A stretch of 7,486 nt of DNA. It comes from a virus. Lineage: Duplodnaviria; Heunggongvirae; Uroviricota; Caudoviricetes. This document shows, in pieces, positions 21 to 7,403 of the stretch. Position 1 is the stretch's first letter; each line of letters opens with the position of its first letter. Where the stretch lies: the IMG/VR virus record IMGVR_UViG_2540341028_000010. The stretch is one strand, 5' to 3'. The notes under the pieces are model-generated. The model worked only from the letters and a program-made list of their open reading frames with translations. It was not told where the DNA came from and made no database searches. Position numbers and translations under genes: made by a program.

Positions 21-526
21 TTATTTTAATAACCGCACCCGGCACGTTTTTCCTTTAATCTTCCCGCCCTGTAACTGTTTCCATGCTTTATGAGCAACAG
101 CCTGACGGACCGCGACATAGACATGCGCCGGATGCACGGCGATTTTGCCAATATCTGCGCCATCAAGCCCGATATCTCCTGTCAGTGCACCTAATACATC
201 ACCCGGGCGCATTTTGGCTTTTTTCCCGCCATCGATACACAACGTTGCCATTTCTGCTTCCAGCGGCACAATGGAACTATTAGCTGGCGGCGTTTGCCAG
301 TTAAGTTTTATCTGCAACATGTCAGAAATGATATTGGCCCGCTGTGCTTCTTCCGGAGCACAGAAACTGATCGCCAGACCGCTATTTCCTGCACGAGCTG
401 TACGGCCGATGCGATGTACATGAACTTCAGGGTCCCACGCCAGCTCAAAGTTCACCACCAGCTCAAGCGATTTAATATCCAGACCACGCGCAGCAACATC
501 AGTCGCAACCAGTACACGGGCGCTAC
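21..526 (-). pseudogene. dbpA: 3' portion (~168 codons) of ATP-dependent RNA helicase DbpA gene; 5' part removed/displaced by IS insertion
   Basis: Minus-strand frame is open and continuous from 526 down to the stop at 21-23. Translation ...[46 protein letters not shown]... contains DEAD-box motif VI ([10 protein letters not shown]) followed by a C-terminal RNA-binding-like region. The reading frame runs straight into the IS terminal repeat that begins at 527. Assignment to dbpA is from recalled sequence, not a search. Confidence 0.8.
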
Positions 527-580: not shown

Positions 581-907
581 ATGACTAAAAATACTCGTTT
601 TTCCCCCGAAGTCCGTCAGAGGGCGATTCGTATGGTTCTGGAAAGTCAGGGCGAATATGACTCACAGTGGGCGGCAATTTGTTCCATTGCCCCAAAGATT
701 GGCTGTACACCGGAGACTCTGCGTGTCTGGGTACGCCAGCATGAGCGGGATACCGGAGGCGGTGATGGCGGGCTCACCACCGCTGAACGTCAGCGTCTGA
801 AAGAGCTGGAACGTGAAAATCGTGAACTGCGCCGCAGTAACGATATCCTTCGCCAGGCTTCCGCTTATTTTGCGAAGGCGGAGTTCGACCGCCTCTGGAA
901 AAAGTGA
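581..907 (+). CDS. IS3-family transposase OrfA (HTH DNA-binding subunit), 108 aa
   Basis: ATG at 581 preceded by a purine-rich SD (aaagaggtaaacagg). Protein [51 protein letters not shown]... has an HTH followed by a leucine-zipper-like C-terminus ([26 protein letters not shown]), typical of IS3 OrfA. Stop at 905-907 lies just after the A5G slippery run. Confidence 0.85.
899..904 (+). other. Putative programmed -1 ribosomal frameshift window (AAAAAG) at the orfA/orfB overlap of the IS629-like element
   Basis: orfA codons AAA(899-901) AAG(902-904) TGA(905-907); orfB is open in the -1 frame from this point (GTG 904, ATG 907). IS3-family elements make an OrfAB fusion by -1 slippage on A-rich heptamers. 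The run here is G AAA AAG, one A short of the canonical A AAA AAG. Confidence 0.45.
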
Positions 908-1795
908 TGCCACTGCTGGATAAGCTGCGTAAGCTGTACGGGGTCGGACCGGTATGCAGTGAACTACATATTGCCCCGTCAACGTATTACCACTGTCAGC
1001 AACAGCGACATCATCCTGATAAACGCAGTGCCCGTGCGCAGCGCGATGACTGGCTGAAGAAAGAGATACTGCGCGTATACGATGGGAATCATCAGGTATA
1101 CGGTGTGCGTAAAGTCTGGCGTCAGTTGTTACGGGAAGGTATCAGAGTGGCCAGATGCACTGTGGCACGTCTCATGGCGGTTATGGGACTTGCCGGTGTT
1201 CCTCCGGGGTAAAAAGGTCCGTACGACCATCAGCCGGAAAGCCGTTGCCGCAGGCGACCGCGTAAACCGTCAGTTCGTGGCAGAACGACCTGACCAGCTG
1301 TGGGTGGCTGATTTTACTTACGTCAGCACATGGCAGGGCTTCGTCTATGTGGCGTTCATTATTGATGTGTTTGCCGGATACATCGTGGGGTGGCGGGTCT
1401 CATCGTCCATGGAAACGACATTCGTGCTGGATGCTCTGGAGCAGGCGTTATGGGCCCGTCGACCGTCCGGCACGGTCCATCACAGTGATAAAGGTTCTCA
1501 GTATGTATCGCTGGCCTACACACAGCGGCTTAAGGAAGCCGGATTACTGGCATCAACAGGAAGTACAGGCGACTCGTATGACAACGCGATGGCGGAGAGC
1601 ATCAATGGTCTTTACAAAGCGGAGGTAATACACCGTAAGAGCTGGAAAAACCGTGCAGAAGTGGAACTGGCCACACTCACGTGGGTGGACTGGTATAATA
1701 ATCGACGATTGCTGGAAAGGCTGGGCCACATCCCTCCGGCAGAAGCAGAAAAAGCTTATTATGCTTCCATCGGAAACGATGATCTGGCAGCCTGA
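904..1795 (+). pseudogene. IS3-family transposase OrfB (DDE integrase-type catalytic subunit), interrupted by a frameshift near 1190-1205
   Basis: The N-terminal part (904-1212, ...YGVRKVWRQLLREGIRVARCTVARLMAVMGLAGV then PPG-stop) and the DDE catalytic part (frame of 1082-1795, ...LRGKKVRTTISRK...RPDQLWVADFTYV...HSDKGSQYVS...DSYDNAMAESINGLYKAEV...) lie in different frames. The switch point is the C-rich run gttcctccgggg around 1193-1203, consistent with a 1-bp indel. Confidence 0.7.
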
Positions 1796-4096: not shown

Positions 4097-4136
4097 AAAA
4101 CCCCGTTTGTTGGCACCAGGCGGGGTTTTGTGTTTC
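4097..4136 (+). terminator. Putative rho-independent terminator / hairpin downstream of the endolysin gene
   Basis: aaaaccccg (4097-4105) pairs with cggggtttt (4121-4129) around a 15-nt loop, followed by a T-rich tract (ttgtgtttct). The loop is long, so strength is uncertain. Confidence 0.4.
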
Positions 4137-4162
4137 TGACCTTGAGTAAGGCAAGGGAGAAC

Positions 4163-4345
4163 ATGGCGAAGTATAAACGAATTCTGTTGAGGTTGACCAT
4201 GAAAAACGGCCTTGAACTGAAAGCGCCTGTAACTGATGACATCAGCAGAGCACTGGCTTTTGCCATTAAGTGGGTGGCGGTCGGTGTTGCTGTGTCCCCG
4301 ATGCTGTATGGGCTGGCAAAACTGGTCATTGCGTTGAAATCGTGA
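4163..4345 (+). CDS. Hypothetical small protein (60 aa) with C-terminal hydrophobic/amphipathic segment
   Basis: ATG at 4163 preceded by purine-rich aagggag. MAKYKRILLRLTMKNGLELKAPVTDDISRALAFAIKWVAVGVAVSPMLYGLAKLVIALKS. Located in a ~480-bp insert between the endolysin and Rz genes. Confidence 0.5.
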   Translation: MAKYKRILLRLTMKNGLELKAPVTDDISRALAFAIKWVAVGVAVSPMLYGLAKLVIALKS

Positions 4346-4359
4346 AGGGAGGATTAAGC

Positions 4360-4491
4360 ATGTCAGACAAACTCATAACGCTGGCGAAGATCCTCTGTGT
4401 AATTGTCGGCATTTCATTTTCACTAATGCTGGTTGCTCTTTTTCTTTCCATGGCCTGGATGATGTTGTCTTCGTCGGGGCTGCTGGGGTGA
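4360..4491 (+). CDS. Hypothetical single-pass membrane peptide (43 aa)
   Basis: Strong SD aagggagg 7 nt upstream of ATG 4360. MSDKLITLAKILCVIVGISFSLMLVALFLSMAWMMLSSSGLLG is almost entirely one transmembrane helix. Its stop (4489-4491) overlaps the GTG at 4488 and lies 11 nt before the ATG at 4503 of Rz. Confidence 0.45.
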   Translation: MSDKLITLAKILCVIVGISFSLMLVALFLSMAWMMLSSSGLLG

Positions 4492-4502
4492 ACATAAACC
4501 GA

Positions 4503-4886
4503 ATGCTTTCCGCGTTTACCGTTATTCTGCTGGTGGTCTGTGGTGCGCTGTGGCTGGCAACAGACCATTACCGTGATAACGCCATCACCTACAAAGCGCA
4601 GCGCGATAAAAAAGCCAGAGAGCTGGAGCTGGCAAACGCAACCATTACTGACATGCAGCAGCGCCAGCGTGATGTTGCCGCTGGTCGTAAGCGCCTGCGG
4701 ATCAACGCCACCTGCTCCGGTACCGTGCGTGAAGCCACCGGCACCTCCGGAATGGATAATGCAACCGGCCCCCGACTGGCAGACACCGCTGAACGGGATT
4801 ATTTCACCCTCAGAGAGCGGTTGATGACAATGCAGAAGCAACTGGAAGGGGCGCAGGAATATATCCGCACTCAGTGTATTAACTAG
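4503..4886 (+). CDS. Rz-like i-spanin (inner-membrane spanin subunit), apparently shortened (~127 aa)
   Basis: N-terminal TM (MLSAFTVILLVVCGALWLA) followed by HYRDNAITYKAQRDK... and the conserved C-terminal PRLADTAERDYFTLRERLMTMQKQLEGAQEYIRTQC, matching lambda-type Rz. An alternative GTG start at 4488 is in frame. About 25 residues of the central coiled-coil seem absent relative to recalled lambda Rz. Confidence 0.75.
   Translation: MLSAFTVILLVVCGALWLATDHYRDNAITYKAQRDKKARELELANATITDMQQRQRDVAAGRKRLRINATCSGTVREATGTSGMDNATGPRLADTAERDYFTLRERLMTMQKQLEGAQEYIRTQCIN
4672..4824 (+). CDS. Rz1-like o-spanin embedded in the +1 frame of Rz; signal peptide appears truncated (possibly non-functional)
   Basis: +1 frame encodes MLPLVVSACGSTPPAPVPCVKPPAPPEWIMQPAPDWQTPLNGIISPSESG: the proline-rich mature region and C-terminus match lambda Rz1. 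Only 8 residues precede the lipobox Cys, and the upstream in-frame sequence is polar with no ATG. Confidence 0.45.
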   Translation: MLPLVVSACGSTPPAPVPCVKPPAPPEWIMQPAPDWQTPLNGIISPSESG

Positions 4887-5134: not shown

Positions 5135-5221
5135 GCGACCTTATTAACCATGCGCGGTATTGTCGCCGTATCCCCGCATTAACAGAGACCGCAGCCTGAG
5201 GTGTACTGGCAATAGCGGACA

Positions 5222-6058
5222 CTACCATTTGTTCTTTTTTTGAGCAGCCATCTGATGATATTTTTCCCTGAAGGCTGCCGGGGAGATATTCCCCAGACGA
5301 GAGTGACGACGCTGACGATTGTAGAAAATCTCAATGTATTCCCGTATTACTGAGATGGCTTCATCCCGGTTATTAAAACGATAGTGGCTCAGGCTCTCAT
5401 TTTTCAGCGTTCCCCAGAAGCTTTCCATCGGAGCGTTGTCGTAACAGTGACCTTTACGCGACATTGATGTTTTCAGACCAGACTGCTCCTGTATGACCCG
5501 GTAATCGTATGCGCAGTACTGTGAACCTCGATCAGAGTGGTGGATTAGCCCGGCAGGTGGGCGTTGGCTCCTGAGCGCCATAAACAGGGCTTTACCTGTC
5601 AGCTCTTTTGTCATGCGCTCTCCCATGGCGTAGCCGACAATTTCGCACGTATAAACATCTTTGATGCCAGCGAGGTACAACCATCCCTCCTGTGTGGCAA
5701 CATACGTCAGGTCCGCCACCCAGACCTGATTTGGTGCTGTAGGAGCGAACGTCTGGTTCAGCAGATTTGGCGCAACTGGAAGATTGTGGTTCGGGTTCGT
5801 AGTCGCTCTGAACTTGCGTTTCTGCTTACAGCGTAGCCTTAGCTCCTTACGAAGACGTGCCAGTCGGTCACGACCAACGATGATGCCATTCTCTGCCAGC
5901 TCCGTCTGGAGCCGCCGGGTTCCATATGTTTCGCGAGTGCGGATATGTGCCACCTTAATCTCCAGTTTTAGCCGCTCATCACTTTGTTTTCTGTCTGAGG
6001 GTTCATGCTGTACCCAGTTGTAATAACCGCTCCTGGATACACCAAATACCTGACACAT
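5222..6058 (-). CDS. IS3-family transposase OrfB (DDE catalytic domain), 278 aa from the first ATG; normally expressed as an OrfAB fusion
   Basis: Contains the DDE region ...PNQVWVADLTYVATQEGWLYLAGIKDVYTCEIVGYAMGERMT...HHSDRGSQYCA...DNAPMESFWGTLKNE.... The -1 frame is open from the slippery site at 6139-6145 through to the stop at 5222-5224 with no interruption. Confidence 0.85.
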   Translation of the reverse strand: MCQVFGVSRSGYYNWVQHEPSDRKQSDERLKLEIKVAHIRTRETYGTRRLQTELAENGIIVGRDRLARLRKELRLRCKQKRKFRATTNPNHNLPVAPNLLNQTFAPTAPNQVWVADLTYVATQEGWLYLAGIKDVYTCEIVGYAMGERMTKELTGKALFMALRSQRPPAGLIHHSDRGSQYCAYDYRVIQEQSGLKTSMSRKGHCYDNAPMESFWGTLKNESLSHYRFNNRDEAISVIREYIEIFYNRQRRHSRLGNISPAAFREKYHQMAAQKKNKW

Positions 6059-6093
6059 CGCTTCAATGGGAAATTGTTGTCGCCATTGTTCGA

Positions 6094-6396
6094 TTAACGC
6101 GTATTTTTCAGCGACTCCTGTGCAAAATACGCTGTTGCTTTTTTTAATATATCTCGCTCAAGGCGAGCTTCATTTAACGCCTTACGCAGTTGCAGAATTT
6201 CAGATTCCAGTTCAGCCACCGTGCGGGAACCAGGAGTACCGAGCCCTTTTCTGGCGGCGGTAACCCATTGTCCTAAAGTGCCTTCAGGAAGGGATAATCG
6301 GGAAGCGCCTTCACTGATCGAAAGTTGATTTTCAAGAACCGTTCTGACAGCTTCGGCTTTGAACTCTTTAGAGTAACGTTGGTTTTTTCTGCTCAT
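6094..6396 (-). CDS. IS3-family transposase OrfA (HTH plus leucine zipper), 100 aa
   Basis: MSRKNQRYSKEFKAEAVRTVLENQLSISEGASRLSLPEGTLGQWVTAARKGLGTPGSRTVAELESEILQLRKALNEARLERDILKKATAYFAQESLKNTR, with the classic ILKKATAYFA motif at the frameshift region. Confidence 0.85.
   Translation of the reverse strand: MSRKNQRYSKEFKAEAVRTVLENQLSISEGASRLSLPEGTLGQWVTAARKGLGTPGSRTVAELESEILQLRKALNEARLERDILKKATAYFAQESLKNTR
6139..6145 (-). other. Programmed -1 ribosomal frameshift heptamer (A AAA AAA, followed by G) linking orfA to orfB of the IS600-like element
   Basis: Plus-strand T7 run at 6139-6145 is A7 on the minus strand, then G at 6138. orfA frame reads TTA AAA AAA GCA; the -1 frame continues open into orfB (...KKSNSVFCTGVAEKYALIEQWRQQFPIEAMCQVFGVS...). 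Confidence 0.6.
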
Positions 6397-6707
6397 TATT
6401 AGCTCCTTCTGATGCCATTCTATTCAGGAAGGAGTGTCCGTTAAACTCAGGCTACCTCAGCCCGACCGGGAGACTCCTCTGCGCGAGTGTGCGGGGATAA
6501 TCAAAAACGATACACACCGGGGTTTACCGCGTTAACGGAGCGCGGCGTTGTCCCCTCATGGTCGCTGGTCCGGTGCGATGGTGGAAGAAACCGGACGATG
6601 TGTTACCTCGCAAGCTCTGTTATGTCATGTGTCTGATTTGTGATTTAAGTCGGATAATTGTCGTTGCCATTAAGCAGAGGATTGATGACCGACAGGGTGG
6701 CATTGTT

Positions 6708-6724
6708 AGAATAAGACTTATTCT
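6708..6724. promoter_or_regulatory. 17-bp perfect palindrome (AGAATAAG-A-CTTATTCT), candidate operator just upstream of the lipoprotein gene
   Basis: agaataagacttattct: 8-bp arms that are exact reverse complements around a single central base. Lies about 20 bp upstream of the ATGs at 6739/6745. Confidence 0.35.
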
Positions 6725-6744
6725 TATCTGTGCCGGGAATGAAA

Positions 6745-7071
6745 ATGAAAAGAAACCTTCCGTTAATTATTTTGTTGTCTTCTCTGGTTATGGGCTGTAC
6801 GCAACATAAAACAGATATGCCCCGACAGTTGGTTAAGGCATTACCACAATATCCGGCCTATGCAGCGGCAAATTATATAAAGGGACGGGTTGATGTGAAG
6901 TTTGATATTGGTGCTGATGGTACTGTCACCCGAATTGAGTTTATCCGTTCAGAGCCGCACCATTTGTTTGATGAGCAGGTTGTAAAGGCGATGGCAAAAT
7001 GGCGATTTGAGAAGGACAGGCCGTGTAAAGGCGTGAAGAAAACGTTTATCTTTAGTCCTTCTGCACCCTGA
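6745..7071 (+). CDS. Small lipoprotein with TonB C-terminal (TonB_C)-like domain, about 108 aa
   Basis: Signal peptide with lipobox-like LVMGC (MKRNLPLIILLSSLVMGC). Mature part LPQYPAYAAANYIKGRVDVKFDIGADGTVTRIEFIRSEPHHLFDEQVVKAMAKWRFEKDRP fits the TonB_C pattern (YP..A....I.G.V.V.F.I...G.V.........F.......A...WRF). GGGA lies 6 nt upstream of ATG 6745; in-frame ATG 6739 and GTG 6730 are alternative starts. Confidence 0.7.
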   Translation: MKRNLPLIILLSSLVMGCTQHKTDMPRQLVKALPQYPAYAAANYIKGRVDVKFDIGADGTVTRIEFIRSEPHHLFDEQVVKAMAKWRFEKDRPCKGVKKTFIFSPSAP

Positions 7072-7202: not shown

Positions 7203-7403
7203 TCATTTCTCGTTATTTTTCATGCTGGCCGGGCGCAGATGCGTTGCATCTGTTGCCAGCCTTCTCCTGCAGGCTTCAATAACCCACGCTGAAAAGTTTC
7301 CTGAACCTTTCAGATCAAGAGCGATGTTAATTTGTTCAATCATCTGGTTTGGAAATCGGATGTTGCGGGTTGTTGTTCTGCGGGTTCTGTTCTTTGATGA
7401 CAT
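7203..7403 (-). CDS. Small ribbon-helix-helix (Arc/MetJ/CopG-like) putative DNA-binding protein, 66 aa
   Basis: Minus-strand ATG at 7401-7403 with ggggaaa SD upstream. Basic N-terminus then IRFPNQMIEQINIALDLKGSGNFSAWVIEACRRRL, which looks like a beta-strand followed by two helices as in RHH folds. Convergent with the lipoprotein gene. Confidence 0.6.
   Translation of the reverse strand: MSSKNRTRRTTTRNIRFPNQMIEQINIALDLKGSGNFSAWVIEACRRRLATDATHLRPASMKNNEK

What the first reader, a model, noticed from the sequence alone, without database searches (positions are those of the whole stretch)
6730..7071. Stand-alone TonB_C-domain protein anchored as a lipoprotein
The ORF encodes a lipoprotein-type signal (MKRNLPLIILLSSLVMGC) followed directly by a single TonB C-terminal-like domain, without the N-terminal TM anchor and proline-rich spacer of genuine TonB. 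Such a periplasmic, lipid-anchored TonB_C module could bind TonB boxes of outer-membrane transporters or peptidoglycan, acting as a decoy or modulator of TonB-dependent uptake, or of colicin/phage entry. It sits immediately next to mobile DNA and is preceded by a perfect palindrome.
Basis: partly seen in the sequence, partly recalled or inferred. Interest (0 to 1): 0.5.

Follow-up and report, generated by a model that had tools for sequence, protein, structure and literature searches.

The report
Prophage lipoprotein copy of TonB's tip
A small prophage gene, found in roughly 30% of complete E. coli genomes, encodes only the receptor-binding tip of the energy-transducer TonB attached to an outer-membrane lipid anchor; it most likely acts as a non-energised decoy at TonB-dependent uptake gates, but nobody has tested its function.

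Summary
The gene (probable start ATG 6745, stop 7071; 108 aa) encodes a lipoprotein signal peptide (lipobox LVMG|C18, Thr at +2), a 7-residue tether and one intact TonB C-terminal domain. It matches Pfam TonB_C at 54.8 bits, aligns without gaps to E. coli TonB 153-231 (39% identity), and its AlphaFold model superposes on solved TonB domains at 1.1-1.2 Å. It is not a fragment: relatives keep its length and an invariant Cys, and dN/dS is 0.13-0.19.

It is cargo of lambda-like prophages and always sits between the lysis cassette and the terminase. This clade occurs in 417 of 5,426 complete E. coli genomes. A 72%-identical clade (phage 21, UTI89, LF82-Perceval) occurs in 1,225. Published RNA-seq shows the Perceval copy is transcribed on its own in the lysogen.

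New here: chromosomal and prophage relatives in Klebsiella, Raoultella, Pantoea, Erwinia, Serratia and Sodalis carry strong Fur boxes just upstream. The window's palindrome lies at the same position but matches the Fur consensus only 12/19.

The best reading, inferred and not shown, is an outer-membrane-tethered decoy for TonB boxes that dampens TonB-dependent entry of phages and bacteriocins. The gene is already annotated ("TonB family protein"); I found no functional study.

The parts
6745..7071 (+). Coding sequence of the 108-aa TonB_C lipoprotein, stop codon included. Alternative in-frame starts are GTG 6730 and ATG 6739.
   Evidence: ORF list. RefSeq annotation of the near-identical gene as 327 nt. 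The start is conserved in clade 2. dN/dS is 0.13-0.19.
6745..6798 (+). Lipoprotein signal peptide: MKR n-region, hydrophobic core, lipobox LVMG|C. The Cys18 codon TGT is at 6796-6798 and is followed by Thr, which predicts outer-membrane sorting.
   Evidence: Read from the sequence. Cys is invariant in 31 relatives and the +2 residue is never Asp.
6799..6819 (+). Seven-residue tether (TQHKTDM) between the lipidated Cys and the folded domain.
   Evidence: Alignment to TonB begins at P26. pLDDT is below 50 for residues 19-21. The tether is also short in most relatives, roughly 8-12 residues and up to about 17.
6820..7056 (+). TonB C-terminal domain (residues 26-104), equivalent to E. coli TonB 153-231.
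   Evidence: Pfam and TIGRFAM matches. Ungapped alignment to PDB TonB chains. AlphaFold model and Foldseek matches.
6685..6712 (+). Sigma-70 promoter-like site: -35 ATGACC, 16-nt spacer, extended -10 TGtTAGAAT.
   Evidence: Consensus scan, 9 of 12 matches plus TG. This is weak alone, because the count in the region equals the shuffle expectation. The -10-like element is kept in clade 2 as TGtCAGAAT / TAAAAT.
6708..6724 (.). Perfect palindrome AGAATAAG-A-CTTATTCT overlapping the -10 and the predicted transcription start. A possible operator.
   Evidence: Not conserved in clade 2.
6710..6728 (.). Weak Fur-box-like 19-mer AATAAGACTTATTCTTATC (12 of 19 matches to GATAATGATAATCATTATC). It ends 16 nt before the ATG, the same position as strong Fur boxes in relatives.
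   Evidence: Scores of 12/19 or better occur upstream of 16% of control genes, so this site is inconclusive.
6735..6739 (+). Shine-Dalgarno-like GGGAA, 5 nt before ATG 6745.
   Evidence: Read from the sequence.

Best explanation
The gene is prophage cargo (a 'moron') encoding an outer-membrane lipoprotein whose only folded part is a complete TonB C-terminal domain.

Proposed mechanism. The signal peptide is cleaved and Cys18 is lipidated. [quoted passage not shown] A 7-residue tether then holds the domain against the periplasmic mouths of TonB-dependent transporters. There it binds TonB-box strands by beta-augmentation as real TonB does. The strands could belong to the transporters themselves or to incoming TonB-dependent bacteriocins. 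Because the protein has no membrane helix, no spacer and no link to ExbB/ExbD, it cannot pull. It therefore acts as a competitive, non-energised decoy.

Predicted benefit to the lysogen: lower sensitivity to TonB-dependent phages (T1- and phi80-like), group B colicins, siderophore-microcins and albomycin-type antibiotics, at some cost in siderophore and B12 uptake.

Shown here: domain identity, fold, lipoprotein features, family conservation, purifying selection, the conserved prophage position, and Fur boxes in relatives. Shown in the literature for a homologue: autonomous transcription in a lysogen. Inferred: lipidation and localisation, TonB-box binding, inhibition, and any protective phenotype.
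For: (1) Domain identity. Residues 26-104 align without gaps to TonB 153-231, the fragment seen bound to the BtuB and FhuA TonB boxes. The model superposes on 2gsk_B and 2grx_C at rmsd 1.1 Å.

(2) Conserved TonB features. The YP motif (Y36-P37, equivalent to Y163-P164) is kept. So are F53 (F180), G59 (G186), F75 (F202), W86 (W213), F88 (Y215) and F103 (F230). Leu33 stands at the Q160 position, and TonB Q160L is a functional allele that suppresses TonB-box mutations in FhuA and colicin M (PMC11658791).

(3) TonB-box binding needs no energy. It depends on strand pairing with beta3 more than on side chains (PMC11658791).

(4) Experimental precedent. Exporting TonB 33-239, 103-239 or 122-239 to the periplasm abolishes TonB-dependent transport (bioRxiv 10.1101/2020.01.05.895219).

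(5) Anchoring. The lipobox Cys is invariant, the +2 residue is never Asp, and the tether is short across 31 relatives.

(6) Selection and prevalence. dN/dS is 0.13-0.19. The gene is in 417 (this clade) and 1,225 (sister clade) of 5,426 complete E. coli genomes.

(7) Moron behaviour. The Perceval copy is transcribed 8-fold above prophage background while neighbouring lysis and terminase genes are silent (PMC9928086).

(8) Link to iron and TonB physiology. 14 of 23 non-E. coli relatives have a Fur-consensus match of 14/19 or better within 120 nt upstream. Only 1 of 253 control upstream regions does (Fisher p about 1e-16).

(9) Precedent for the strategy. Phage lipoproteins Llp and Cor inactivate FhuA from the periplasmic side of the outer membrane (bioRxiv 10.64898/2026.03.26.714494).
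Against: There is no binding, localisation or phenotype data for any family member (literature searches found none).

A Fur-induced inhibitor of TonB-dependent uptake looks paradoxical for the chromosomal copies in Pantoea, Klebsiella and Serratia, because those cells need that uptake most when iron is scarce. A positive or organising role would fit that regulation at least as well.

The published inhibition used over-expressed soluble fragments. The moron's expression is modest (log2 fpkm about 5-6.6), and TonB-dependent transporters are abundant, so stoichiometric blocking may not be reached.

Two basic TonB residues, R166 and R171, are Tyr in this protein. From memory, R166 contacts FhuA.

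No PADLOC defence model matches.

The window's own Fur-like site is weak (12/19), and clade 2 has none.
Confidence: 0.45

Rival explanations
1. It is a positive or organising accessory of the iron-starvation response, not an inhibitor. The outer-membrane-tethered TonB domain might dock onto transporters, periplasmic binding proteins or peptidoglycan to organise or prime uptake sites. It might bind a specific substrate, as the TonB homologue FusB binds ferredoxin. Phages would then carry it alongside sitABCD as an iron-acquisition benefit to the host.
For: Strong Fur boxes sit upstream of most non-E. coli members, including purely chromosomal ones in Klebsiella/Raoultella, Pantoea, Erwinia and Serratia. 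Co-induction with uptake systems is what one expects of a helper. Phage 21, UTI89 and Perceval prophages carry the gene together with the iron/manganese importer sitABCD. FusB structures (7zc8, 9hi3) are among the fold matches and show that a TonB_C domain can bind cargo.
Against: Without a link to ExbB/ExbD the domain cannot deliver energy. The only experimental precedent for free TonB C-terminal fragments is inhibition. I know of no helper of this kind. Both E. coli phage clades have weakened or lost the Fur box.
Confidence: 0.2
2. It is a decoy for the TonB machine rather than for TonB boxes. The domain would pair with the C-terminal domain of native TonB, which is known to dimerise, or with the ExbD periplasmic domain. 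That would hold TonB unproductively at the outer membrane. The outcome is the same as for the best explanation, but the target differs.
For: [quoted passage not shown] The best structural match, 1u07, is a two-chain (dimeric) TonB fragment crystal. TonB is far scarcer than its transporters (established knowledge), so titrating TonB needs fewer decoy molecules.
Against: A 7-residue tether to the outer membrane makes contact with inner-membrane-anchored ExbD unlikely (inference). Heterodimer formation was not tested. The residues conserved across the family include the Q160-region YP motif that contacts TonB boxes.
Confidence: 0.15
3. It is a lysis accessory or spanin-like protein, as the PHROG label 'Rz-like spanin' suggests. 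On this view it is expressed late to help disrupt the envelope or to stop progeny phage binding to debris.
For: PHROG 1267 matches at E 5.7e-43 and is categorised as 'lysis'. The gene always lies just downstream of holin-endolysin-spanin genes on the same strand. It is a predicted outer-membrane lipoprotein, as o-spanins are.
Against: Phage 21 has a complete i-spanin/o-spanin pair in addition, separated from this gene by bor on the opposite strand. The protein is a globular TonB fold, not a proline-rich o-spanin, and it lacks the C-terminal TM segment of a unimolecular spanin. Homologues exist in non-prophage chromosomal settings with Fur boxes. The Perceval copy is transcribed when the lysis genes are silent. 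The PHROG label most likely comes from position.
Confidence: 0.04
4. It is a functionless relic: a captured piece of a host tonB gene that persists by hitch-hiking. In this window it sits in a decayed, IS-ridden prophage. Some records call it 'TonB fragment' or 'partial tonB-like membrane protein'.
For: Annotations in phages Perceval and ev017 call it a fragment. The window's prophage is degraded by two IS elements. Many truncated variants are in the databases.
Against: dN/dS is 0.13-0.19 at dS of about 1.1-1.4. The protein has acquired a lipoprotein signal peptide with an invariant Cys. Length is conserved across at least eight genera. It has its own regulated upstream regions and is transcribed in a lysogen.
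Confidence: 0.06

Closest known systems
E. coli TonB (P02929), C-terminal domain residues about 153-239 (PDB 1u07, 2gsk_B, 2grx_C)
   Same: Same fold at rmsd 1.1-1.2 Å. 39% identity over 79 ungapped residues. The YP motif and the aromatic core residues are kept.
   Different: It lacks the N-terminal TM helix that couples to ExbB/ExbD and lacks the proline-rich spacer. It has a lipoprotein signal peptide and a 7-residue tether instead, so it would be anchored to the opposite membrane and cannot transduce energy. Q160 is Leu; R166 and R171 are Tyr.
Engineered periplasmic TonB fragments (33-239, 103-239, 122-239) exported with a cleavable signal peptide
   Same: A TonB C-terminal domain in the periplasm, uncoupled from the motor. 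These fragments dominantly inhibit ferrichrome transport and low-iron growth (bioRxiv 10.1101/2020.01.05.895219). From memory, the original work is Howard et al. 2001, J Bacteriol.
   Different: Those fragments are artificial, soluble and over-expressed. This protein is natural, shorter (only the 153-235 equivalent), predicted to be lipid-anchored to the outer membrane, and modestly expressed.
Llp (phage T5) and Cor (phi80, N15, HK022): superinfection-exclusion lipoproteins
   Same: Small phage-encoded lipoproteins of the inner leaflet of the outer membrane. They act on a TonB-dependent transporter (FhuA) from the periplasmic side and block phage entry (bioRxiv 10.64898/2026.03.26.714494).
   Different: No sequence or fold relationship is evident: the best matches here are all TonB. 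Llp and Cor are specific for FhuA and act allosterically. A TonB-box decoy would be generic for all TonB-dependent gates.
Bor / Iss lipoprotein morons of lambda-like phages
   Same: Same genomic slot between the spanin genes and cos/terminase. Small outer-membrane lipoproteins expressed from the prophage. Bor/Iss lies next to the TonB_C gene in phage 21, UTI89 and Perceval.
   Different: The fold and function (serum resistance) are unrelated. Bor is on the opposite strand, whereas the TonB_C gene is always on the late-gene strand.
Specialised TonB paralogues such as FusB (Pectobacterium) and HasB (Serratia)
   Same: Divergent TonB_C domains dedicated to particular transporters or cargo. FusB structures are among the fold matches.
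   Different: Those are full-length, inner-membrane-anchored, energised TonB proteins.

Membership tests
TonB_C domain (Pfam PF03544 / TIGR01352) | Profile match above the curated cut-off | tested here: met
   PF03544 scores 54.8 bits against 24.6. TIGR01352 scores 54.5 against 27.1.
TonB_C domain (Pfam PF03544 / TIGR01352) | Fold of solved TonB C-terminal domains (three-stranded sheet packed on two helices) | tested here: met
   AlphaFold2 mean pLDDT is 86. Foldseek gives 1u07_A at E 1.5e-8, and 2gsk_B and 2grx_C at rmsd 1.1 Å with TM 0.91.
TonB_C domain (Pfam PF03544 / TIGR01352) | Conserved YP motif and aromatic core (TonB Y163, P164, F180, G186, F202, W213, Y215, F230) | tested here: met
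   Y36, P37, F53, G59, F75, W86, F88 and F103 align to them. Most are invariant or nearly so in the family.
TonB energy transducer (full-length TonB; NCBIfam PRK10819 equivalogs) | N-terminal uncleaved TM helix that couples to ExbB/ExbD | tested here: not met
   The N-terminus is a lipoprotein signal peptide ending in a lipobox. Equivalog scores are 74 bits or less against cut-offs of 265-448, and matches cover only the C-terminal third of the models.
TonB energy transducer (full-length TonB; NCBIfam PRK10819 equivalogs) | Proline-rich periplasm-spanning spacer | tested here: not met
   Only 7 residues (TQHKTDM) lie between Cys18 and the domain.
TonB energy transducer (full-length TonB; NCBIfam PRK10819 equivalogs) | Binds TonB boxes of outer-membrane transporters | not testable with these tools
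   Complex prediction and binding assays are not available here. This is inferred from domain conservation only.
Bacterial outer-membrane lipoprotein (Lgt/LspA/Lnt-processed, Lol-sorted) | Basic n-region, hydrophobic h-region, lipobox [LVI][ASTVI..][GAS]C | tested here: met
   The sequence is MKR-NLPLIILLSSL-VMG-C18. Cys is invariant in 31 of 31 relatives.
Bacterial outer-membrane lipoprotein (Lgt/LspA/Lnt-processed, Lol-sorted) | No Asp at +2 (the inner-membrane retention signal in E. coli) | tested here: met
   The +2 residue is Thr here, and S, T, A or V in all relatives.
Bacterial outer-membrane lipoprotein (Lgt/LspA/Lnt-processed, Lol-sorted) | Actual lipidation and outer-membrane localisation | not testable with these tools
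   This needs globomycin or palmitate labelling and membrane fractionation.
Prophage moron | Located in a prophage but not part of a lytic-cycle module; inserted between modules | tested here: met
   It lies between the lysis cassette and terminase/cos in E. coli (two clades), Klebsiella, Rahnella, Sodalis and Serratia prophages with otherwise different neighbours.
Prophage moron | Autonomous expression in the lysogen | tested here: inconclusive
   RNA-seq shows it for the 72%-identical Perceval copy (PMC9928086). For the window's gene there is only a promoter-like site at 6685-6712.
Fur regulon | Fur box (GATAATGATAATCATTATC-like) overlapping the promoter | tested here: inconclusive
   The window site at 6710-6728 matches 12/19, and 16% of control upstream regions score as well. 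Among relatives, 14 of 23 score 14/19 or better against 1 of 253 controls. Fur binding itself was not tested.
Spanins (PHROG 1267 label 'Rz-like spanin') | o-spanin: short proline-rich lipoprotein encoded within or next to an i-spanin gene; or u-spanin: lipoprotein with a C-terminal TM segment | tested here: not met
   The protein has a globular TonB fold and no C-terminal hydrophobic segment. Phage 21 has a separate complete i/o-spanin pair.
Known anti-phage defence systems (PADLOC-DB 2.0) | Match to a defence-protein model | tested here: not met
   The only hit is a chance-level match (E 0.022, cyclase).

The most novel reading that the evidence does not exclude
This family could be a widespread, unrecognised class of outer-membrane-tethered TonB-box decoys. 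The chromosomal versions would be switched on by iron starvation through Fur. Lambda-like phages would have captured the gene repeatedly. It would act as a generic shield against everything that hijacks TonB, including T1- and phi80-type phages, group B colicins, siderophore-microcins and sideromycin antibiotics. In phage 21-type prophages it would be paired with the TonB-independent importer SitABCD, which could offset the cost in iron supply.
Probability: 0.3. Interest if true: 0.75.

Novelty: new variant of a known kind. Interest (0 to 1): 0.55.

Why it matters
If the decoy reading is right, roughly 30% of sequenced E. coli carry a simple, generic brake on TonB-dependent entry. That group includes uropathogenic UTI89, Crohn's-associated LF82 and strains carrying Stx1 phages.

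This would affect three practical areas: phage-therapy host range, colicin- and microcin-based competition in the gut, and susceptibility to siderophore-conjugated antibiotics, which also enter through TonB-dependent gates.

It would also add a new mechanism to phage superinfection exclusion: mimicry of the host's energy transducer rather than blocking of a single receptor. The Fur-box finding gives the chromosomal relatives a testable place in the iron-starvation response.

The experiments are cheap and decisive, and the gene is only 327 bp.

Tried and rejected
Fur box in the window itself. The best match is 12/19 at 6710. Eleven positions in the window score 12 or 13 of 19, and 16% of control upstream regions reach 12. 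It is kept only as a positional homologue of the real Fur boxes in relatives.

The palindrome as a significant feature. It is the only perfect 8+8 palindrome in the window, but chance expectation is 0.3-1.35, and its right arm is missing in clade 2.

The spanin label of PHROG 1267. Rejected on fold, on architecture, and on the presence of complete spanins elsewhere in the same phages.

'Fragment of a longer gene'. Rejected.

Defence-system models. No match.

Rfam. Nothing near the gene; the only hit is the IS3 frameshift pseudoknot at 862-978.

RNA structure in the conserved upstream block 6454-6600. No excess stability on either strand.

Literature. Nine full-text searches found no functional study of this protein. 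One transcriptome paper lists the homologue as a moron.

Origin of the window. No complete E. coli genome in the collection has this exact IS600 junction as one contiguous match. The source organism (E. coli or Shigella) was not determined.

Complex prediction with a TonB-box peptide. Not possible with the structure tool's input limits.
Full report
**1. What is in the sequence**

The window lists an ORF at 6730..7071 on the + strand. The biologically likely start is ATG 6745.
- RefSeq annotates the near-identical gene as 327 nt / 108 aa, "TonB family protein" (WP_000828068.1).
- The sister clade has no in-frame start further upstream.
- GGGAA lies 5 nt before this ATG.

The product begins MKRNLPLIILLSSLVMG|C18-T. 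That is a basic n-region, a hydrophobic core and a lipobox.

Residues 26-104 match Pfam TonB_C (54.8 bits against a cut-off of 24.6) and TIGR01352 (54.5 against 27.1). They align without a single gap to E. coli TonB 153-231, with 31 of 79 residues identical.

An AlphaFold2 model built on 31 relatives has mean pLDDT 86. Block means are 95 or more from residue 31 to 100. Its best matches in the PDB are TonB C-terminal domains, including those crystallised on BtuB (2gsk_B) and FhuA (2grx_C), at rmsd 1.1-1.2 Å.

Full-length TonB models match only through their C-terminal third and fall far below their cut-offs. Only seven residues separate the lipidated Cys from the domain.

**2. It is a gene, not a fragment**

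Some database records call it a "TonB fragment" or "partial tonB-like membrane protein". The evidence says otherwise.
- Thirty-one full-length relatives share the same length and the short tether. The Cys is invariant in all of them, and the +2 residue is never Asp, the inner-membrane retention signal.
- Between the window's clade and the phage 21 clade, synonymous sites are near saturation (dS 1.1-1.4) while dN/dS is 0.13-0.19.

**3. Where it lives**

The window is a decayed lambda-like prophage. In order it contains:
- a dbpA 3' end;
- an IS3-family element;
- remnants of a DUF6645 gene, then DUF826;
- a phage-21-type holin, DUF1327, a lysozyme and Rz;
- an IS600-family element at about 5197-6453;
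- the TonB_C gene;
- a convergent ylcI/DUF3950 gene.

Intact relatives show the real context. The gene sits between the lysis cassette and the terminase on the late-gene strand in:
- E. coli O103 and phage JLK-2012, with 99.6-99.8% DNA matches also in Stx1a-converting phages and Lys8385Vzw;
- phage 21 and its relatives ev017 and Perceval, which are 72% identical;
- a Klebsiella phage;
- Rahnella, Sodalis and Serratia prophages at 33-49% identity.

These phages have different lysis and packaging genes, so the position itself is conserved. Bor/Iss occupies the same slot.

Prevalence: the window's clade is in 417 of 5,426 complete E. coli genomes. The phage 21 clade is in 1,225, including UTI89. 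The exact protein is recorded on at least 1,000 contigs.

An exhaustive HMMER search finds further stand-alone lipoprotein versions of about 110 aa. Alignment-based searches place them in Salmonella-labelled, Rahnella, Pantoea, Erwinia and Sodalis records. They also place them in Klebsiella, Raoultella, Serratia and Pseudescherichia genomes. Several of these are plainly chromosomal and not in prophages.

**4. Expression**

A transcriptome study of E. coli LF82 lists the Perceval copy (LF82_160, "TonB fragment") as a moron transcribed 8-fold above the prophage background in LB. The paper's supplementary table shows log2 fpkm of 5.0-6.6 in every condition. The adjacent endolysin, spanin and terminase genes stay at 2.3-4.4. 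There is no significant change in macrophages (PMC9928086). At least the sister clade is therefore expressed in the lysogen independently of the late operon.

In the window there is a promoter-like site at 6685-6712 with an extended -10, TGtTAGAAT. Its -10 is kept in clade 2. The IS600 insertion 292 bp upstream would cut the gene off from late-operon read-through, so any expression here must come from that promoter (inference).

**5. New finding: Fur boxes in the family**

I scanned the 120 nt upstream of each family member for the E. coli Fur consensus GATAATGATAATCATTATC. Matches of 13-17 out of 19 end 11-46 nt before the start codon in:
- Klebsiella/Raoultella (gtgataatattgagaattattatcaata);
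- Sodalis (atgataatgattctcattaac);
- Erwinia typographi;
- two Serratia species;
- several Pantoea lineages.

In most of these the site is the best match in the whole 12-kb locus.

Fourteen of 23 non-E. coli members score 14/19 or better, against 1 of 253 upstream regions of other genes in the same loci (Fisher p about 1e-16). The members are not phylogenetically independent, but several genera with different box sequences are involved. Two of the Fur-boxed copies are in prophages (Sodalis L012, Serratia L027).

The window's palindrome AGAATAAG-A-CTTATTCT (6708-6724) overlaps the -10 and the predicted start point. It lies where the relatives have their Fur boxes: both end in TTATC, 16 nt before the ATG. 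It matches the consensus only 12/19, a score that 16% of controls reach. The phage 21 clade has lost it altogether. As a palindrome it is not beyond chance.

My reading is that the family is ancestrally Fur-regulated, and that the E. coli phage copies have a diverged operator or a constitutive promoter. Fur binding itself is untested.

**6. How it most likely works**

Established knowledge:
- TonB's C-terminal domain binds the TonB box of transporters and of TonB-dependent colicins.
- Binding is by pairing the box with strand beta3.
- The interaction depends more on backbone geometry than on side chains.
- It does not need energised TonB.
- The region around Q160 contacts the box, and Q160L is a functional suppressor allele (review PMC11658791).

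The phage protein keeps the whole structured domain, the YP motif and the aromatic core. It carries Leu at the Q160 position.

Exporting TonB periplasmic fragments, down to 122-239, abolishes TonB-dependent transport (bioRxiv 10.1101/2020.01.05.895219).

A lipid anchor with Thr at +2 and a 7-residue tether would hold the domain at the inner face of the outer membrane, where TonB boxes emerge (inference). Phage lipoproteins Llp and Cor act on FhuA from that same location.

The simplest mechanism is therefore a non-energised competitor for TonB boxes. It would lower entry of TonB-dependent phages, colicins, microcins and sideromycins, at some cost in iron and B12 uptake. I give this 0.45.

Phage 21, UTI89 and Perceval prophages also carry sitABCD, a TonB-independent iron/manganese importer. 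That fits a cost-compensation idea but proves nothing.

**7. Rivals**

- *Helper of iron uptake (0.2).* Fur co-induction with uptake systems is what one expects of a helper, and is awkward for an inhibitor in chromosomal hosts. However, the domain cannot deliver energy, and the only precedent for free fragments is inhibition.
- *Decoy for TonB or ExbD rather than for TonB boxes (0.15).* Exported TonB domains also disturb the ExbD-TonB complex. The short outer-membrane tether argues against reaching ExbD.
- *Lysis accessory, as the PHROG label implies (0.04).* This is contradicted by the fold, by the separate complete spanins of phage 21, by the chromosomal Fur-boxed relatives, and by expression while lysis genes are silent.
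- *Functionless relic (0.06).* This is contradicted by purifying selection and by the acquired, conserved lipoprotein signal.

**8. Comparison with the known, and novelty**

It is a member of the TonB_C domain family, and every feature tested was met. It is not a TonB energy transducer, because the TM helix and the spacer were tested and are absent.

It would work like the engineered dominant-negative TonB fragments. In strategy it would resemble Llp and Cor, but it is unrelated to them.

The gene has been annotated since early O157 genome records ([quoted passage not shown]). It has also been noted as a moron. The bare observation is therefore not new.

I could not find the following in the searchable literature:
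- any functional study;
- recognition of the conserved lipoprotein anchoring;
- the breadth of the family;
- the Fur boxes.

I rate it a new variant of a known kind, with interest 0.55. It is not startling to a TonB or phage specialist. It is very common, uncharacterised, and open to a quick and decisive test.

Noticed in passing
window 6454-6600: A roughly 147-nt non-coding block just right of the IS600 end is better conserved between the two E. coli phage clades than the TonB_C coding sequence is. The alignment shows long invariant runs, whereas the CDS is 73% identical. The block occurs at 4,539 places in 1,911 of 5,426 E. coli genomes, up to 9 per genome, and none of the listed hits carries an annotated feature. 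It has no Rfam match and no excess RNA folding energy on either strand. Its role is unknown; it could be a small RNA, a protein-binding site or a recombination hotspot of lambda-like phages.
   Followed up: partly
L093 (phage 21, record 21967-24502) and L094 (UTI89, locus 27248-30697): Phage 21 and the related UTI89 and LF82-Perceval prophages carry the iron/manganese importer sitABCD. They also carry iss/bor and an extra porin (UTI89, Perceval) in the same prophage as the TonB_C lipoprotein gene. This makes an iron-themed set of cargo genes. The co-occurrence was not quantified across genomes.
   Followed up: partly
L023 3196-4278 (-) and 2873-3175 (+): In a Pantoea genome, a 360-aa ORF lies about 1.7 kb upstream of the Fur-boxed TonB_C lipoprotein gene, with an integrase-like ORF in between. 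The ORF has a glycine-rich N-terminus and a C-terminal hydrophobic hairpin, so by eye it looks like a pore-forming colicin. A 100-aa hydrophobic ORF next to it looks like an immunity protein. A link between the decoy and bacteriocins is possible. These ORFs were not run against any profile library.
   Followed up: no
window 5197-6453 (-): An IS600-family (IS3-like) element with orfA at 6094-6396 and orfB at 5222-6058 is inserted between the Rz region and the TonB_C gene. Phage sequence resumes on both sides (window 5153-5196 and 6454 onward match adjacent positions of intact prophages). O121 strains have an IS600 followed by about 140 nt of the same flank.
   Followed up: partly
window 21-458 (-), 581-1795 (+), 862-978: The C-terminal end of a DbpA-like RNA helicase ORF (identified by eye, not run against a profile library) abuts a second IS3-family element with orfA at 581-907 and orfB up to 1795. 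That element's frameshifting ALIL pseudoknot is the only Rfam hit in the window (116 bits). The phage DUF6645 gene to its right is truncated. The prophage has therefore lost everything upstream of its late region.
   Followed up: partly
window 7203-7403 (-): A YlcI/YnfO (DUF3950) gene lies convergent to the TonB_C gene, as in intact clade-1 phages. By eye its sequence resembles a ribbon-helix-helix DNA-binding protein. Similarity to the intact phages stops at 7403, so the downstream HNH/terminase region is replaced in this window.
   Followed up: no
window 4488-4886 (+) and 4130-4491: The Rz ORF matches the Pfam Phage_lysis profile only from about residue 61. The region between the lysozyme gene and Rz aligns to intact prophages in several rearranged pieces. 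The lysis cassette here is probably mosaic or damaged.
   Followed up: no
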